From sequence record NC_028448.1: a stretch of DNA of 64,000 bases. One strand, written 5' to 3'. The position numbers were made by a program, and so were the translations under genes. The stretch is from Escherichia phage slur14. Of this stretch, positions 1 through 7,412 are shown one piece after another (the first letter of the stretch is position 1; the number at the start of each line of letters is the position of its first letter). The notes below the pieces were generated by a model. It was not told the origin of the DNA. It worked only from the letters and a program-made list of their open reading frames with translations, and made no database searches.

Positions 1-393
1 AAGTTCTTTAGAACCTTCAAATAATTTTCCAGCGAAATCAGTCCTTAGTCCATAAGCCATAACAGGAACATTATATGTATCAACAATTCGGCTTAATTGA
101 TGCACTTGTTCAGTTTTTAAAAACTGAGCTTCATCTACAAATACACAATGAATATCTTTTTGTGCTTCAGCCCATTTATAGAACTCAAAAATATCCATAT
201 CATCCGTAATAATATTCGCTTCCTGTTTAATTCCAATGCGAGAAACGACTTCACAGACAGAATCGCGAGTATCAATAGCAGGCTTAAGAACTAATACACT
301 CATTCCACGTTCTTTATAATTATGCGCAGCAGTCAAAAGAGAAGCAGATTTTCCAGCATTCATTGCTGCATAAGTAAAAATTAAACTCGCCAT
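1..393 (-). CDS. tk: thymidine kinase, N-terminal 131 codons (3' end runs off the window start)
   Basis: Minus-strand ATG at 391-393; translation MASLIFTYAAMNAGKSASLL... with P-loop GKS; matches T4 Tk as recalled. Confidence 0.9.
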   Translation of the reverse strand, partial: MASLIFTYAAMNAGKSASLLTAAHNYKERGMSVLVLKPAIDTRDSVCEVVSRIGIKQEANIITDDMDIFEFYKWAEAQKDIHCVFVDEAQFLKTEQVHQLSRIVDTYNVPVMAYGLRTDFAGKLFEGSKEL

Positions 394-402
394 ATCACCT
401 TC

Positions 403-588
403 TTAAAGCGTATTCACATAAGCTATTAATTCATTTTCTTTCTTATCAAACCGATCAGCAAATTCTTCCTGCTGTTCAGGAGATAGCGGGCCGTATTCAT
501 CATAAAAGGTGTTTGCTTCTGTATGCTCATCTAGAAGTTCATGGATAAGCTCAAACAATTTATCTTTTTGTTCTTTGCTTAGGCTCAC
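403..588 (-). CDS. small acidic hypothetical protein (T4 tk.1 position)
   Basis: 61-codon ORF; first codon is GTG; stop 9 nt upstream of tk start. Confidence 0.5.
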   Translation of the reverse strand: MSLSKEQKDKLFELIHELLDEHTEANTFYDEYGPLSPEQQEEFADRFDKKENELIAYVNTL

Positions 589-761
589 AGTATGTCAATC
601 CCCAAAAGTTTTAAAATGACTCGTTTCTGATTCATAACTGCTACGATTGAATGACCGTTGGGGTCTTTTTGACCTGATCCAATTATAAATCCTTTTTGCG
701 CAGAAAGTTTAATCAAAACATCAAGTTCACGTAATAATTGATATTTTAAATCATCATTCAT
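585..761 (-). CDS. hypothetical small protein (58 aa), below the ORF-track cutoff
   Basis: Own translation MNDDLKYQLLRELDVLIKLSAQKGFIIGSG...; ATG overlaps upstream stop (ATGA) and its TGA overlaps the downstream GTG start. Confidence 0.35.
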   Translation of the reverse strand: MNDDLKYQLLRELDVLIKLSAQKGFIIGSGQKDPNGHSIVAVMNQKRVILKLLGIDIL

Positions 762-970
762 TTTGGTTTACCTTCTTTAACGAAATCAGGATAAGGATAA
801 AATCCTGAATAAAATCCTTCACCTTTATGATTGATGCATCCTTTATTAGAACAATAGCACCAATAATCGAAATCACAAGTCATTTCATCGTTGCATAAAG
901 CAAAAACAACCGGCCACTTACACTTTTCGCAGTGGGCATTTTTAAGAATACTAGTTTGGCTCATAACCAT
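758..970 (-). CDS. small Cys-rich hypothetical protein, probable zinc-binding
   Basis: ORF-track 758..985 begins at TTG; first ATG at 970 with AAAGG upstream; multiple Cys pairs (CEKC, C..C, CYC, C..H). Confidence 0.5.
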   Translation of the reverse strand: MVMSQTSILKNAHCEKCKWPVVFALCNDEMTCDFDYWCYCSNKGCINHKGEGFYSGFYPYPDFVKEGKPK

Positions 971-1173
971 GTAACCTTTAAGCAATATTCTTCTACATGT
1001 TGTTTACGACCTTTCTTATCAATAAAGGTATATTCAACGAATGTTCCAATGTAGTCTTTATCTACATCATGTGGACTATTAATTGGACATTTAGTACGGC
1101 AAATGCGTTCCCATTGACGAATAATTACTGCCTTATTCTTTGGGTCATACGGATGTGGATAATGTATATTCAT
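961..1173 (-). CDS. hypothetical protein
   Basis: ORF-track 961..1188 begins at TTG; first ATG at 1173 (MNIHYPHPYD...); ATGA overlap with upstream gene. Confidence 0.5.
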   Translation of the reverse strand: MNIHYPHPYDPKNKAVIIRQWERICRTKCPINSPHDVDKDYIGTFVEYTFIDKKGRKQHVEEYCLKVTWL

Positions 1174-1637
1174 AATAACGGTTCCCAATCAACAATCACA
1201 ATTTCTAATTTAGAGGAATATGTATCTAAAATCCCCTCAATAATATCCCAGTTCCCTTTACCTATGCCTGCACCAATCCTAGGCATATAGATTGTAGGTT
1301 TAATCAGTTTATTTTCACCAAACTCATTTAATTCTAACATACAATTCATTAAAGCGGAATACTCAAAATTTGGCCCCGGTTGAAATTGAGTATAAAGATT
1401 GAAGCAGTAAGCTTTATGAGTCCTAAAGTATTTTTCATAGACTGAGTAAGAACCGAGTTTAGTTACATCGCCCCATTCTGTCTGTAATTTATCAGCTTCC
1501 AAAATTTTAGGGAAAGCTTTAGTTAATTGACCTGCGACTCCAGCTTTCATCGTGTGAAAACAATTACATCCATGCGCAATATTTTTACCTTCAGCGAAAA
1601 GGGCGACAATATCGCCCTTGATATATTTTACAATCAT
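1170..1637 (-). CDS. macro-domain-like protein (ADP-ribose binding/processing fold), T4 tk.4 position
   Basis: 155 aa; N-terminal GDIV..IAHGCNC..AGVAG and C-terminal YMPRIGAGIGKG align by eye with the macro-domain pattern GDIT..IVNAAN..GGGV / FPAIStGvyG. Confidence 0.55.
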   Translation of the reverse strand: MIVKYIKGDIVALFAEGKNIAHGCNCFHTMKAGVAGQLTKAFPKILEADKLQTEWGDVTKLGSYSVYEKYFRTHKAYCFNLYTQFQPGPNFEYSALMNCMLELNEFGENKLIKPTIYMPRIGAGIGKGNWDIIEGILDTYSSKLEIVIVDWEPLL

Positions 1638-1981
1638 CTAGTACTCAATCCTCGATTATAAGAATCTACCAAACGGTCAACCATTGAATGACAAGCGGCT
1701 TTATCTTTTTCCTCCGCAACTGAACATTCTAAGGTATTCCACTTTTTAGCATATCGTTTTAACAATGTATCATTTTTGTATCTGCTTGATTTATCTCTTT
1801 CTCCGTCTTTATATGCATATATTAATTTCTGCGCAAATTCAGCTTGGCATGCTTTATTTTTCCCGCAATAATCCGCTGCAGTACGGTTTACATACTCTCT
1901 AATTTCAGTATATGATGTATCTGCTAACGCAGAAGCAGAAAATGAAATTAATCCTATACATAAAACCAAAATTTTAGTCAT
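1634..1981 (-). CDS. small exported protein (position and length of T4 vs)
   Basis: 115 aa; N-terminal signal peptide MTKILVLCIGLISFSASALA; ATGA overlap with downstream ORF. Confidence 0.5.
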   Translation of the reverse strand: MTKILVLCIGLISFSASALADTSYTEIREYVNRTAADYCGKNKACQAEFAQKLIYAYKDGERDKSSRYKNDTLLKRYAKKWNTLECSVAEEKDKAACHSMVDRLVDSYNRGLSTR

Positions 1982-2519
1982 TTACTATTTCCAAAAGTTT
2001 ATTATTTTTAAGGTAATTAGCCTTTTCTAGGACTTCAGAAGCATATTTAGAACCAGCTTTAACATTCCATCCCGAATTATAAGAGGATATTGCTTTTCTT
2101 ATATCGCCCTTATGTATATTTAACCAATAAGAAAGTTCAATGTACGCCCAGGAAGCTGAATTGGATCGTTTATTCAACATTCTTTTTATTTCAGCATCGG
2201 TCATATTATAACCAAGTTCCTTAACTCTCGCTCGCATAGTAGGCAAATAATTTTGGAACATTCCGTAGGCGTGATGCTTTGGTTTAGATTTTAAATTAAC
2301 TCCGCCAGAGCTTTCTTGCCATAAAATGGCTGCCATTATATGACCTAATCCGCTCTTGTGGATATTTTTGTGTGTTTTATATTTTCCATCCTTAGAAAAT
2401 TGTTCCCCGAATTGATACGCGTAACGCATGTTATCGAGTTGGACATTACTGAAAGTATGCTCGGAGCTATGCGCCATCATTGAAATGGCCAATAGACCAG
2501 CGAGTAGTGCTTTTCTCAT
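1974..2519 (-). CDS. exported lytic transglycosylase (SLT domain), T4 vs.1 position
   Basis: 181 aa; signal peptide MRKALLAGLLAISMMAHS; SLT family-1 motifs ES (LWQESSGG), GMFQ, SYNSG. Confidence 0.75.
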   Translation of the reverse strand: MRKALLAGLLAISMMAHSSEHTFSNVQLDNMRYAYQFGEQFSKDGKYKTHKNIHKSGLGHIMAAILWQESSGGVNLKSKPKHHAYGMFQNYLPTMRARVKELGYNMTDAEIKRMLNKRSNSASWAYIELSYWLNIHKGDIRKAISSYNSGWNVKAGSKYASEVLEKANYLKNNKLLEIVND

Positions 2520-2526
2520 GCTTACC

Positions 2527-2988
2527 TCATTGAGTTTTAATTACTGCTTTAGAAGCCTTTCCTGGTAAACGACGACTGTTAATAATTGCCATCCTACATT
2601 GAAGTGACGGGTCTTTGAACTTCGCGTTAGGTTTACAAACTGTAAATCCAAGCCAAAGATTTCCATCTGTGATTTCTAAACGTCCAGGACGATATTCAAC
2701 CCCATCAATAAAATCCTCGTCAATGTCAGGGCGCGGAGGCATACTCAGGAATTCATTAACTTCTAAAACATGGTCTTTTATTTTATGGAATAATTCAAAA
2801 ACATATGTCTCGTCAATTTCCCGTTGAATTGCACGATCAAGAAGATGCTGAGAATATTTTAGATGAAACGATGAGACCCCTGCTGCTTTTGATGCCTCAC
2901 GAATCTCATTGTTAATTTGACGAAACTCCGACTCAAAGTGACGACGAAGCTTATTTCGACGGATAAAAACTTCTGTATTGATAGTCAT
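2527..2988 (-). CDS. regB: RegB site-specific endoribonuclease
   Basis: 153 aa, MTINTEVFIRRNKLRRHFESEFRQ...; length and sequence match T4 RegB as recalled; canonical early promoter immediately upstream. Confidence 0.9.
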   Translation of the reverse strand: MTINTEVFIRRNKLRRHFESEFRQINNEIREASKAAGVSSFHLKYSQHLLDRAIQREIDETYVFELFHKIKDHVLEVNEFLSMPPRPDIDEDFIDGVEYRPGRLEITDGNLWLGFTVCKPNAKFKDPSLQCRMAIINSRRLPGKASKAVIKTQ

Positions 2989-3015
2989 GTTATTCTCCTC
3001 TTAACTGATAGAAAA

Positions 3016-3045
3016 ATTATACCACAGTCAAGAGGAAAAGTAAAC
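3016..3045 (-). promoter_or_regulatory. T4-type early promoter (-35 GTTTAC, extended -10 TGgTATAAT) for regB
   Basis: Minus strand reads GTTTAC-18nt-TATAAT ending about 30 nt upstream of the regB ATG. Confidence 0.7.
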
Positions 3046-3047
3046 AG

Positions 3048-3326
3048 TTATTCTTTAAATCTAATCAATTTATTCATAGACTTTGAAACTTCTGCACGAA
3101 CCTCATGTAGATTTTTGAGCTGTTCAAGACGCTGCTCATAGTAAGCAATTTCATCTTCTTCGAGACAGTCCTGTGAATCTTCTTTAAGATAACGTGCATA
3201 GTCCTGGAAAGCGTTACGAACTACTTCCTGGAAGTCATCAAGACTTTGAATTTTCTTAGGAGCAACAGATACACGACGAGGGGCAGTATAATACTCATAA
3301 CCAAACCCTGCGCTTAATTGAGCCAT
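3048..3326 (-). CDS. hypothetical protein (T4 vs.3 position)
   Basis: ORF-track 3048..3368 starts at GTG; ATG at 3326 preceded by GAGGAAA RBS ([13 protein letters not shown]...). Confidence 0.5.
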
Positions 3327-3592
3327 TAATATTTTTCCTCTGGTTGGAACACAGCACGACAAGCCCACATACTGGCTTCTTTGAGTTTCGTTTTAGCAAT
3401 AGTTAACTGATCGAGGCTTTCGGCGTAATTCTTCGCGAGTTCATCATCTTCACAGCTATCAAATGCTTCCCAAAATTCATCGTATAAAGCATCAAAGATA
3501 AGTCCTAAACGAACTTCAGCGTCTTTAATAGCATTTACTTTACCGATTTTTTCGTCGGTATGTGGCTTATAACCTTTAATATCTTCAATCAT
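3326..3592 (-). CDS. hypothetical acidic protein (T4 vs.4 position)
   Basis: ORF-track 3326..3628 starts at TTG; ATG at 3592 preceded by GAGGAAG RBS. Confidence 0.5.
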
Positions 3593-3806
3593 ATTTGACT
3601 TCCTCACCAGTACATAAATCGTATTCAACTAAACGAATAGGTTCATGAATGCCATATCCTTGAACAGAAATTTCTGTAGTAGGATAAATTCCATTAATAT
3701 CACCCATGTTCCATGCTTCGTTAAATTGCTGTTCGCCTGAATTACTAAACCATTCGGCGAAAGCATTTAGCACATCTTTAGAACCTTCAATAATTATCTT
3801 TGCCAT
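3585..3806 (-). CDS. hypothetical protein (T4 vs.5 position)
   Basis: 73-aa ORF with ATG start; 1-nt overlap with the upstream stop. Confidence 0.5.
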   Translation of the reverse strand: MAKIIIEGSKDVLNAFAEWFSNSGEQQFNEAWNMGDINGIYPTTEISVQGYGIHEPIRLVEYDLCTGEEVKYD

Positions 3807-4168
3807 TACAAACTCTCAGTAAAGGTACGAGCGATAACGTCGCGCTGCTGTTCCGGAGTCAGAGAGTTAAAGCGAACTGCATAACCGGATACACGGATGG
3901 TCAGCTGCGGATATTTTTCCGGATGCTTAACTGCATCTTCCAGAGTTTCACGACGCAGAACGTTAACGTTCAGGTGTTGACCACCTTCAATTTTAACTGT
4001 AGGCTGTTGCTCAATTTCAATTTCACGGGCATGCAAACCGTAGAAAATTTCTGGGTCTACAAAAGAGTCCTCTTTAAAGGTTTTAGAGACAATAATTCGT
4101 GCTTGAATACCATCTTCAAAATAAATAGTACCTTTATGTGTGCCTTCAAGAATTTGATATGCTTTCAT
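3806..4168 (-). CDS. autonomous glycyl-radical cofactor, GrcA/YfiD-like (T4 vs.6 position)
   Basis: 120 aa; C-terminal half ...[60 protein letters not shown] matches the glycyl-radical domain of E. coli GrcA / PFL C-terminus as recalled. Confidence 0.85.
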
Positions 4169-4175
4169 ATAAACC

Positions 4176-4556
4176 TCAATTAGAAAATAAATTTATCCAA
4201 GATTGTTCTTTGATTAAAAATGGCTCAGAATCATATGCCATTAAACTCTGTGTGATTAGTCCTTTAAAAGGCCCATCAATAAATTCCATGGTAAAATATG
4301 GAATTTTATTCATTAGCCGTGCATTAGGAGCAGTACACAAAACTCTGCATCCTTTGAATACGCCTTTTTGTAATTTGTATTGCTTAGGATAAAATTCGCT
4401 CAAGACGTTGTTATTTGCCAAAATTTCAAAATGATTCACCAATTTATTTTTAATAGTTTTTGGCGAAAAATAAAGATATTCGAAAAGCTGAGTGTCTGTC
4501 ATCATTGCATTCCGATTACGAAAAACTGTGGACGAGTAATACCACCAATGCAACAT
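4176..4556 (-). CDS. hypothetical protein (T4 vs.7 position)
   Basis: 126-aa ORF with ATG start; collinear position. Confidence 0.45.
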
Positions 4557-5089
4557 TTAATATTACAGCAGCAGTGTACAGTGTCAATATGGACACTATA
4601 AATCTTATCCATATCAGGAGATTTGACAGGCTCATCAATTATATACAAAATTCGCGAAAGCGATAAACCTCTGAACTTGCTTCCTTTATTACCAATAAAA
4701 CTGCGCACAGAATCAGTAAATAAACGAAAACGTATATCATCATTAGAATAACGCGAAAATTCCTTTTTAATGTTATTTGCAGAAATTTTAGCGTAAGCTG
4801 AAGTATTAGAAAGAACAATAACTGTTCCGCCATCATACAACCAATTAGCAGCAAAGTTAGTCACAGCAATTGATTTACCAGATTGACGTCCACCATCTAG
4901 TCGAAGTGTGCAGTACTGTTTAAGTAATTCTTCAAATGGCGGGATATAATCGTTTTTACAAATTTCTTCTACTCTAGCATCAGAATGGTGTGTAAAAGCA
5001 TTCATCAGGGATAGATAAGGACCAGTTAAAAATGTTCTCATTTTATTCTCTCTAAATTTGGGCCATTCCATGGCGCATGAATTGTCCAT
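4502..5089 (-). CDS. hypothetical P-loop protein (T4 vs.8 position)
   Basis: 195-aa ORF; Walker-A-like GGRQSGKS; start codon uncertain (ATGs at 5089, 5071, 5041). Confidence 0.5.
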   Translation of the reverse strand: MDNSCAMEWPKFRENKMRTFLTGPYLSLMNAFTHHSDARVEEICKNDYIPPFEELLKQYCTLRLDGGRQSGKSIAVTNFAANWLYDGGTVIVLSNTSAYAKISANNIKKEFSRYSNDDIRFRLFTDSVRSFIGNKGSKFRGLSLSRILYIIDEPVKSPDMDKIYSVHIDTVHCCCNIKCCIGGITRPQFFVIGMQ

Positions 5090-5194
5090 TTCTGTATTTA
5101 CCCATTACCGCACTTGGGCTCGACCTTATTACAGGTTGGCGGGAATCCCTCATAGAATCATGAGGTCCAGCTTGTTCCCATATTTCTTATTTGC

Positions 5195-5668
5195 TTATTT
5201 GAATGATTTGACGTACTGAATAGAACCTTTACTATTCACGAAAGCGATTTTACCATTTTTATTATACATGGTAGCAGTACGCTGATAGCCATAAGTTTGT
5301 TTACCAGATTGATAACCAACTAATGCGAAATTATCTTCACCCATTTTATTCTGTTTAGCGCGAATACGTTCATGACCGTGTGCCATAAGAACCTTAGCAT
5401 CACCAGTTGAAATTGATCTACGAGTTTTTTCATCTTCAACTGTATTAACAAAGTCGTCAAATGAATCAAATTTAGCATGGGATTTATTATACAGTTTTCC
5501 ATCTACTGCATAATTATATCCCTGTACATCCATCTCAACTTCTGTACCATCATCCAATACAGCAGTAATTTTTTGACCTTTTTTAAATTTCAAAAGATCA
5601 GTAAAAGATTCAGCAATAATTTGAGAATTAATAGCTGCTTCAGTGATAAATTCTTGATATGTTTTCAT
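5195..5668 (-). CDS. internal-protein-like protein with capsid targeting sequence
   Basis: 157 aa; N-terminus MKTYQEFITEA... with ITE|A and IAE|S motifs typical of gp21-processed T4 internal proteins. Confidence 0.6.
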   Translation of the reverse strand: MKTYQEFITEAAINSQIIAESFTDLLKFKKGQKITAVLDDGTEVEMDVQGYNYAVDGKLYNKSHAKFDSFDDFVNTVEDEKTRRSISTGDAKVLMAHGHERIRAKQNKMGEDNFALVGYQSGKQTYGYQRTATMYNKNGKIAFVNSKGSIQYVKSFK

Positions 5669-5677
5669 ATGTTTCCT

Positions 5678-6094
5678 TTAAATGTAAATATTTTTGCCGT
5701 AATACTTGTACCAGTGTGGCTTCATTAAAATTTTTTCATCGAGTCGTTGTTGACTCAATTTAATAGCTGATTTGCATGGATTATAATCATTTTTCCATTC
5801 TGCTGGAATATCGCTGATGTCAGGAACTTCAGTATCTTTTATACTAAACCCACGTTTTAAGCATTCCGTTATAATGTCTGATTGACGCTTTCGCAAAAAT
5901 TCTAACTTATCGTAAAAGAACTTAACATGACCAGAGCCTAAAATAAACTCGGAAGATATTTTAAAATCTTTAACCCGCTTACCATTTGCCACATGTTTAC
6001 GAACTATACCAAAAACACGCGGCAATTCACGATACTCAGCCATAAGATGTTGGTCGGTCAGTTCAGAAACAAGTGTTAAATTGATACGAGTCAT
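5678..6094 (-). CDS. denV: endonuclease V (pyrimidine-dimer DNA glycosylase)
   Basis: 138 aa from ATG 6094 (GGAGGAAA RBS); [29 protein letters not shown]... matches T4 DenV as recalled. Confidence 0.9.

Positions 6095-6152: not shown

Positions 6153-7393
<1,241 letters not shown>

Positions 7394-7412
<19 letters not shown>

What the first reader, a model, noticed from the sequence alone, without database searches (positions are those of the whole stretch)
1170..1637. Macro-domain protein in the tk-vs early region
The 155-aa product shows, by eye, the hallmark macro-domain elements (N-terminal GDI[TV]...I..[NH]..N..; glycine-rich GVAG; C-terminal P-x-IG-x-G-x-G). T-even phages encode ADP-ribosyltransferases (Alt, ModA, ModB), and several bacterial defence and toxin systems act by ADP-ribosylation. 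A phage macro domain could reverse self-inflicted or host-inflicted ADP-ribosylation, or process an ADP-ribose-derived signal.
Basis: inference. Interest (0 to 1): 0.5.

Follow-up and report, generated by a model that had tools for sequence, protein, structure and literature searches.

The report
T4 tk.4 macrodomain, anti-DarTG2 factor AdfM
The gene is a real macro-domain protein, but it is the already annotated T4 gene tk.4, which a 2025 preprint showed protects T4 against DarTG2, a bacterial defence that ADP-ribosylates phage DNA.

Summary
Window 1170-1637 (minus strand) encodes a 155-aa protein that passes Pfam's Macro cut-off. It folds with pLDDT 96 into a macrodomain, and its best structural matches all belong to the TARG1/DarG/Poa1p/SCO6735 (ALC1-like) class.

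The window is Escherichia phage slur03. The protein is T4 Tk.4 with two substitutions, and GenBank records already call it "macro domain protein" or "phosphatase".

A 2025 preprint (HIDEN-SEQ) found tk.4 to be the only T4 gene that becomes essential on DarTG2 hosts and renamed it AdfM. It inferred, but did not show, that the protein removes ADP-ribose from thymidine in phage DNA.

What I add:
- The Tk.4 family has an invariant Gln (261/261) where DarG, TARG1 and the PhiKZ "AdfM" have the catalytic Lys. SCO6735, which does cleave thymidine-ADPr, has the same Gln.
- Tk.4 is therefore not a captured DarG. It is only remotely related to PhiKZ AdfM.
- Within Tequatrovirus, tk.4 is a sharply bounded divergence cassette: 55% identity between flanks that are 93-100% identical.

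Verdict: correct, but already known. Low interest.

The parts
1170..1637 (-). tk.4 / adfM coding sequence (155 aa plus TGA stop), a single macrodomain with no extra domain
   Evidence: ORF list. Pfam Macro. 153/155 identical to T4T Tk.4. Annotated 'phosphatase' in slur03 RefSeq and 'Macro domain protein' in slur08.
1530..1574 (-). Residues 22-36, HGCNCFHTMKAGVAG: first ADP-ribose-binding loop. It holds near-invariant H22, G23, N25 and G33 and invariant A35. K31-A32 are the only two differences from T4 (G31-S32).
   Evidence: Column counts over 261 family members: N25 260, G33 260, A35 261, but G31 only 217, with K in 10. Aligns with SCO6735 H24/V25/N27 and with the N23 mutated in PhiKZ AdfM.
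1386..1394 (-). Y82-T83-Q84. Q84 sits in the position of the catalytic Lys of TARG1 (K84), DarG (K80) and PhiKZ gp104 (K78), and of Gln85 in SCO6735.
   Evidence: Q84 and Y82 are present in 261/261 members. Alignments. The role of SCO6735 Gln85 is from PMC9411070 and PMC9967889.
1248..1283 (-). Residues 119-130, PRIGAGIGKGNW: second (diphosphate-binding) glycine-rich loop. G126 occupies the position of TARG1 D125 and Poa1p F152.
   Evidence: P119, I121, G122 and G124 are near-invariant. Alignments with TARG1, SCO6735 and DarG. The Poa1p alignment is, and PDB entry titles name the F152A mutant.
1634..1981 (-). Upstream gene vs (valyl-tRNA synthetase modifier). Its TGA overlaps the tk.4 ATG as ATGA.
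961..1173 (-). Downstream gene tk.3 (70 aa, DUF7202). Its ATG overlaps the tk.4 TGA as ATGA.

Best explanation
The gene is the slur03 orthologue of T4 tk.4, recently renamed adfM (anti-DarT factor, macrodomain). It is a free-standing macrodomain hydrolase of the ALC1/TARG1-like class. It sits in a run of overlapping genes on the same strand, between vs and tk.

The most likely mechanism is as follows. The host toxin DarT2 attaches ADP-ribose to thymidines in single-stranded phage DNA. Tk.4 binds that ADP-ribose in its cleft, cleaves the thymine-ribose bond and releases free ADP-ribose, so replication can go on.

Catalysis is probably of the SCO6735 type. An invariant Gln84 would position the distal ribose and the transition state, and an activated water would do the chemistry. 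This differs from the catalytic lysine of DarG and TARG1.

What is shown and what is inferred:
- Shown here: macrodomain identity, class, conserved residues and orthology to T4 Tk.4.
- Shown by others, in T4: tk.4 is required for growth on DarTG2 hosts.
- Inferred: the hydrolase activity on DNA and the Gln-based mechanism.
For: - Macrodomain.
- Orthology: 153/155 identical to T4 Tk.4, with the same gene order.
- Genetics in T4: tk.4 was the only significant hit on DarTG2, and the clean knockout is sensitised.
- Gln84 is invariant in 261/261 family members. It aligns with SCO6735 Gln85 and with the catalytic Lys of DarG, TARG1 and PhiKZ gp104.
- SCO6735 cleaves thymidine-ADPr on DNA and rescues DarT toxicity, and its Q85A/E mutants are inactive (PMC9411070).
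- A different macrodomain, PhiKZ gp104, removes DarT2 marks from DNA in vitro (PMC13309987).
- Relatives are fused to NADAR (the anti-DarT1 fold) and to NUDIX.
Against: - No biochemical assay exists for Tk.4. The preprint says only that enzymatic removal 'seems likely'.
- Tk.4 lacks the catalytic Lys that DarG needs.
- It also lacks the 5-residue longer, Lys-bearing 'mobile loop' that the SCO6735 authors link to DNA processivity.
- It scores only 29.7 bits on the PADLOC DarG model, against 132.9 for PhiKZ gp104.
- Catalytically dead SCO6735 still inhibits DarT, so a non-enzymatic contribution is possible.
- The genetic evidence comes from a preprint and from T4, not from slur03. The slur03 protein carries K31-A32 in the binding loop where T4 has G31-S32.
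Confidence: 0.75

Rival explanations
1. Tk.4 is an ADP-ribose-1''-phosphate phosphatase like yeast Poa1p, as the database label 'phosphatase' implies. It would clear a by-product of 2'-phosphate removal during RNA repair.
For: - PHROG 335 is labelled 'phosphatase', and the T4T record notes an 'A1pp phosphatase motif'.
- H22 and the C-N-C motif match Poa1p H23 and C-N-C, and invariant D49 aligns with an Asp in Poa1p.
- In distant T4-like phage contigs the gene lies next to RNA ligase 1, with PNKP a few genes away.
Against: - The only phenotype found in a genome-wide screen is specific to DarTG2.
- Poa1p F152 corresponds to Gly/Ala in the family. Poa1p S30 corresponds to a variable position, with T in 145 of 261 members.
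- Poa1p has Ser where the family has invariant Gln84.
- Neither T4 nor this window's annotation shows a KptA/Tpt1 gene that would make the substrate.
- Many macrodomains show this activity in vitro without it being their biological role (general knowledge).
Confidence: 0.1
2. Tk.4 blocks DarT2 mainly without catalysis. It would bind the toxin or shield ADP-ribosylated DNA, as seen with catalytically dead SCO6735, DarG and TARG1.
For: SCO6735 Q85A, DarG K80A and TARG1 K84A all still reduce DarT activity in vitro, and SCO6735 is the strongest of the three. T. aquaticus DarG with a mutated K80 still counteracts DarT.
Against: - Tk.4 lacks the C-terminal DarT-binding domain of DarG. It is a single domain of 155 aa.
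- Strict conservation of the active-site residues N25, Q84, G33, G122 and G124 across 261 diverse members points to an enzyme.
- A stoichiometric binder would have to recognise many different DarT2 variants.
Confidence: 0.08
3. Tk.4 removes ADP-ribose from proteins or RNA, or degrades a soluble ADP-ribose-derived immune signal. Possible substrates include marks left by the phage's own Alt/ModA/ModB enzymes, uracil-ADPr on RNA, O-acetyl-ADP-ribose and Thoeris-type signals.
For: - Iyer et al. 2022 argued that phage ADPr-processing domains mostly act on soluble derivatives, and noted Macro, NADAR and DUF4326 fusions.
- Such fusions occur in this family.
- SCO6735, TARG1 and DarG also cleave uracil-ADPr on RNA, and SCO6735 also acts on Asp/Glu-linked protein ADPr.
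Against: - Alt and Mod enzymes modify arginine, a linkage that ARH-type enzymes cleave and that macrodomains are not known to cleave (general knowledge, not tested here).
- tk.4 is dispensable on E. coli K-12 and is required only with DarTG2.
- No signal-degrading activity has been reported for this macrodomain class.
Confidence: 0.07

Closest known systems
T4 Tk.4 / AdfM (anti-DarT factor macrodomain; HIDEN-SEQ preprint 10.1101/2025.11.20.689424)
   Same: It is the same gene. The proteins are 153/155 identical, with the same neighbours vs and tk.3 and the same overlapping start and stop codons.
   Different: Residues 31-32 are K-A here and G-S in T4. This lies in the first binding loop but within family variation. 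The anti-DarTG2 phenotype was measured in T4, not in slur03.
Streptomyces coelicolor SCO6735 (PDB 5E3B) and Bacteroides Bt_1257 (PDB 2FG1): Gln-type ALC1-like macrodomains
   Different: Identity is only 20-29%. Tk.4 lacks the 5-6 residue mobile-loop insertion that carries SCO6735 Lys89. Tk.4 has its own invariant residues, D49 and Y82, which SCO6735 lacks. The Tk.4 family was found on phage contigs in every case checked.
DarG antitoxin of DarTG2 (T. aquaticus 5M31/5M3E, M. tuberculosis 5M3I)
   Different: Tk.4 has Gln in place of catalytic K80, no equivalent of W83, no C-terminal DarT-binding domain and no adjacent darT. It scores NCBIfam DarG 25 bits against a cut-off of 250, and PADLOC DarG 29.7 bits.
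PhiKZ gp104 'AdfM' (Morgan et al., Cell Rep 2026, PMC13309987)
   Same: It is a phage-encoded single macrodomain that counters DarTG2, and it carries the same name.
   Different: It belongs to a different lineage. gp104 is clearly DarG-like (E 9e-25 to M. tuberculosis DarG, F-P-T-K motif, PADLOC DarG 132.9 bits). BLASTP between Tk.4 and gp104 aligns only 23 residues at E 0.018. The relationship shows only at profile level, with 96.9% probability. gp104 has in-vitro proof of activity and is imported into the phage nucleus.
Human TARG1/OARD1 and yeast Poa1p
   Different: TARG1 K84 and D125 correspond to Q84 and G126 in Tk.4. Poa1p has Ser at the Gln position and Phe152 where Tk.4 has Gly.

Membership tests
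Macro domain (Pfam PF01661) | Profile score above the curated gathering cut-off | tested here: met
   25 bits against a cut-off of 22, E 1.9e-5, covering profile positions 2-113 of 118.
Macro domain (Pfam PF01661) | Three-layer alpha/beta macro fold with two glycine-rich loops lining the ADP-ribose cleft | tested here: met
ALC1/TARG1-like macrodomain class | Closer in structure and sequence to TARG1, DarG, SCO6735 and Poa1p than to MacroD, viral or PARG types | tested here: met
T4 AdfM (Tk.4) orthologue group | Near-identical sequence in the conserved vs - tk.4 - tk.3 position of a Tequatrovirus genome | tested here: met
   153/155 identical, with the same gene order.
T4 AdfM (Tk.4) orthologue group | Required for phage growth on DarTG2-expressing hosts | not testable with these tools
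   Reported for T4 only, in a preprint.
DarG antitoxin (DarTG2) | Catalytic lysine (K80) after the conserved Thr | tested here: not met
   Gln84 occupies this position, as it does in all 261 family members. The K80 requirement is described.
DarG antitoxin (DarTG2) | C-terminal DarT-binding domain and an adjacent darT gene | tested here: not met
   The protein is a single 155-aa domain. Its neighbours are vs and tk.3. It scores 25 bits on NCBIfam DarG, whose cut-off is 250.
SCO6735/Bt_1257 Gln-type subclass | Gln at the catalytic-Lys position | tested here: met
   Q84 aligns with SCO6735 Q85 and with the Bt_1257 Gln.
SCO6735/Bt_1257 Gln-type subclass | Mobile loop five residues longer than in DarG/TARG1, carrying Lys89 | tested here: not met
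   Bt_1257 and SCO6735 carry a 5-6 column insertion relative to the Tk.4 family, and Tk.4 has no Lys there. The feature is described.
Poa1p-type ADP-ribose-1''-phosphate phosphatase | Equivalents of the residues probed in the Poa1p structures (H23, S30, F152) | tested here: inconclusive
   The H23 equivalent is present (H22, 249/261). The S30 equivalent is T29, but that position is variable (T in 145/261). The F152 equivalent is Gly/Ala. Enzyme activity was not testable.

The most novel reading that the evidence does not exclude
T-even phages did not capture a DarG antitoxin. Their AdfM would instead belong to a large, mostly phage-borne macrodomain lineage: about 1,300 clusters at 50% identity with E <= 1e-30, carrying invariant Y82, Q84 and D49. 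This lineage would use Gln- and water-based chemistry, as SCO6735 does. Anti-DarT2 macrodomains would then have arisen at least twice in phages, once as the T4 type and once as the PhiKZ DarG type. The cassette-like replacement of tk.4 alleles between otherwise near-identical Tequatroviruses would reflect selection by different DarT2 variants or by host sensors of the protein.
Probability: 0.5. Interest if true: 0.4.

Novelty: already known. Interest (0 to 1): 0.2.

Why it matters
It matters little as a discovery. The gene is named, many GenBank records annotate it as a macrodomain, and a preprint gives it a genetic function.

It has some value as a refinement:
- The common RefSeq/PHROG label "phosphatase" is probably misleading.
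- Two unrelated phage macrodomain lineages now share the name AdfM.
- The T4-type lineage lacks the DarG catalytic lysine, so its mechanism should be tested against the SCO6735 model rather than assumed from DarG.
- The discrete tk.4 alleles in T4-like phages could affect which DarTG2-carrying hosts a therapeutic phage can infect.

Tried and rejected
- Promoter and terminator scan of window 1-6000: 24 promoter-like sites against 23.2 expected and 4 terminator-like sites against 3.5 expected. This says nothing about expression.
- One literature search used the term 'macro' and was swamped by 'macrophage' papers.
- The DarTG1 counter-defence paper turned out to concern gene 30.3/AdfN (a NADAR protein), not tk.4.
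- I looked for bacterial Tk.4-type genes next to darT, which would be a toxin-antitoxin origin. The three homologues labelled as bacterial MAG proteins all sit on T4-like phage contigs carrying Rnl1, a Dda-like helicase, PNKP and dCMP deaminase, so no such context was found. I did not scan the genome collection.
- I checked whether the K31-A32 change relative to T4 disrupts the G-x-G motif. I rejected this as a defect, because position 31 is Gly in only 217 of 261 members and Lys occurs in 10.
I could not measure how close Q84, D49 and Y82 lie to a docked ADP-ribose.

Full report
**1. The observation**

Window 1170-1637 holds an ORF on the minus strand. It starts at the ATG at 1637, ends at the TGA at 1170-1172 and encodes 155 aa.

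The macro-domain call is statistically sound:
- Pfam Macro scores 25 bits against a gathering cut-off of 22.
- PHROG 335 scores E 1.4e-64.
- The single sequence hits solved macrodomains: Bt_1257 at 2e-8, and also Poa1p, TARG1 and DarG.
- A profile of 80 homologues raises these hits to 6e-19 through 4e-12.
- AlphaFold2 on that alignment gives pLDDT 96.2 and pTM 0.91, with the expected alternating strand/helix order.

**2. Identity of the gene**

The first 4 kb of the window are 100% identical to Escherichia phage slur03 and slur08 (Tequatrovirus). The protein is 153/155 identical to T4 Tk.4 and differs only at residues 31-32, which are K-A here and G-S in T4.

The gene order is that of T4: vs.1, vs, tk.4, tk.3, then the small tk ORFs and tk. 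ATGA start/stop overlaps occur on both sides of tk.4.

Existing records already label the gene in several ways: "Macro domain protein", "macro domain-containing protein", "Poa1p_like family protein", "phosphatase", or "contains A1pp phosphatase motif". tblastn finds a homologue in 2,732 phage records.

**3. What is known about its function**

The HIDEN-SEQ preprint (10.1101/2025.11.20.689424) screened a T4 transposon library on a DarTG2-expressing host. tk.4 was the single significant hit, and a clean knockout became sensitive to DarTG2. The authors renamed the gene adfM. [quoted passage not shown] They reported no biochemistry.

A separate paper (Cell Rep 2026, PMC13309987) gave the same name to PhiKZ gp104. 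It showed in vitro that gp104 removes DarT2-made ADP-ribose from a TNTC oligonucleotide.

T4's anti-DarTG1 factor is a different gene, 30.3/AdfN, which is a NADAR protein.

**4. What kind of macrodomain it is**

Within that class, Tk.4 is not a DarG:
- It scores 25 bits on the NCBIfam DarG model, whose cut-off is 250.
- On the PADLOC DarG model it scores 29.7 bits. SCO6735 scores about the same (34.5), whereas PhiKZ gp104 scores 132.9.
- gp104 matches M. tuberculosis DarG at E 9e-25 and keeps the F-P-T-K motif.
- Tk.4 and gp104 align by BLASTP over only 23 residues at E 0.018. They are related only at profile level, with 96.9% probability.

**5. The catalytic position**

Three independent alignments were used: hhalign, hmmsearch and MAFFT with reference sequences. 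In all three, Tk.4 Q84, in the motif Y-T-Q, falls on the catalytic Lys of TARG1 (K84), DarG (K80) and gp104 (K78). TARG1 D125 corresponds to G126.

I examined 261 family members, including 150 representatives of 50%-identity clusters. Conservation is as follows:

| Residue | Members with this residue (of 261) |
|---|---|
| Q84 | 261 |
| Y82 | 261 |
| A35 | 261 |
| N25 | 260 |
| D49 | 260 |
| G33 | 260 |

The literature gives a precedent. SCO6735 (PDB 5E3B) and Bt_1257 have Gln at this position. SCO6735 cleaves thymidine-linked ADP-ribose on DNA and rescues DarT toxicity, and its Q85A and Q85E mutants are dead. The authors proposed a water-mediated mechanism in which Gln positions the distal ribose (PMC9411070; PMC9967889).

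I recovered the SCO6735 sequence from a PDB search and confirmed that its Q85 lines up with Tk.4 Q84.

Tk.4 differs from SCO6735 and Bt_1257 in two ways. It lacks their 5-6 residue longer "mobile loop", which carries Lys89. It also has its own invariant D49 and Y82, whose roles I could not determine because model coordinates are not exposed.

**6. Size and context of the family**

The family profile finds 1,322 cluster representatives at E <= 1e-30 and 9,700 at E <= 1e-10.

Three homologues are labelled as bacterial MAG proteins. All three lie on T4-like phage contigs, next to RNA ligase 1, a Dda-like helicase, PNKP and dCMP deaminase.

Some relatives are fusion proteins: Macro+NADAR+DUF4326, DUF4326+Macro and Macro+NUDIX. 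These partners fit nucleic-acid de-ADP-ribosylation followed by disposal of the released ADP-ribose. They also fit the earlier prediction that phage macrodomains act on soluble ADP-ribose derivatives (PMC9503650).

**7. Mechanism and rival explanations**

The best-supported account is that Tk.4/AdfM is a Gln-type ALC1-class hydrolase that strips DarT2-made ADP-ribose from thymidines in phage DNA. I put my confidence in the whole chain at about 0.75. It is near certain for "macrodomain, T4 tk.4 orthologue", good for "anti-DarTG2", and moderate for "enzymatic, Gln/water chemistry".

The rivals are:
- A Poa1p-like ADP-ribose-1''-phosphate phosphatase, as the current database label implies. H22 and D49 match Poa1p, but the F152 and S30 equivalents do not, and the only known phenotype is specific to DarTG2.
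- Non-catalytic inhibition of DarT2, for which dead SCO6735 is a precedent.
- Action on protein, RNA or soluble ADP-ribose derivatives.

**8. Novelty**

This is already known. The added points are refinements: Tk.4 is Gln-type rather than Lys-type, the two proteins named AdfM belong to different lineages, and tk.4 shows cassette-like allelic turnover. None of them is a new kind of system.

Noticed in passing
window 1171-1640 (tk.4) compared with L003 (Escherichia phage PP01, LC348379) 3501-3980: tk.4 is a sharply bounded divergence cassette within Tequatrovirus. Against PP01, the flanking proteins from vs.6 to vs are 94-100% identical, Tk.3 is 93% and Tk.2 is 97%, but Tk.4 is only 55% identical. 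Nucleotide identity falls from 97-100% to 50-77% across the gene and recovers to 95-98% soon after its end. tblastn identities across phage records fall into discrete bands (>=95%, 80-90%, <60%). This points to replacement of whole alleles by recombination, as expected for a gene in an arms race.
   Followed up: partly
window 1539-1545 (codons 31-32 of tk.4) and about 40 nt around them: The only two amino-acid differences from T4 are adjacent (K31-A32 here, G31-S32 in T4). They sit inside a cluster of synonymous differences, which looks like a short gene-conversion patch rather than point mutations. Lys at position 31 also occurs in 10 of 261 family members.
   Followed up: partly
P0225, P0227 and P0236 (family representatives); L004 41-343; L005 69-371: Tk.4-type macrodomains occur fused to NADAR plus DUF4326, to DUF4326 alone, and to NUDIX. 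A separate DUF4326 gene lies two to three genes upstream of the macro gene in two distant T4-like phage contigs. A Macro+NADAR fusion would combine the folds of T4's two anti-DarT factors, AdfM and AdfN.
   Followed up: partly
window 6957-7397 (-): A NUDIX hydrolase, annotated 'nudix hydrolase' and in the position of T4 nudE, lies about 5.3 kb from tk.4. PMC9503650 reports that T4 NudE uses ADP-ribose as a substrate, and ADP-ribose is the expected product of the macrodomain reaction. I did not test any functional link.
   Followed up: no
tk.4 residues D49 (window 1491-1493) and Y82 (window 1392-1394): Two residues are invariant or nearly so across the family (D49 260/261, Y82 261/261) but are absent from SCO6735, DarG and TARG1. 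D49 aligns with an Asp in yeast Poa1p. Their roles are unexplained.
   Followed up: no
window 1974-2519 (-), vs.1: The 181-aa Vs.1 protein, annotated hypothetical in T4 and slur03, has an N-terminal signal-like hydrophobic segment and passes the Pfam SLT (lytic transglycosylase) cut-off at 25.1 bits against 21.3. One GenBank record already calls it a lytic transglycosylase.
   Followed up: no
literature, not the window: The name AdfM is now used for two macrodomains that are only remotely related: T4 Tk.4 (Gln type) and PhiKZ gp104 (DarG-like, Lys type). In addition, a 2026 preprint on T2 describes tk.4 as a 'putative thymidine kinase', which is an annotation slip.
   Followed up: yes
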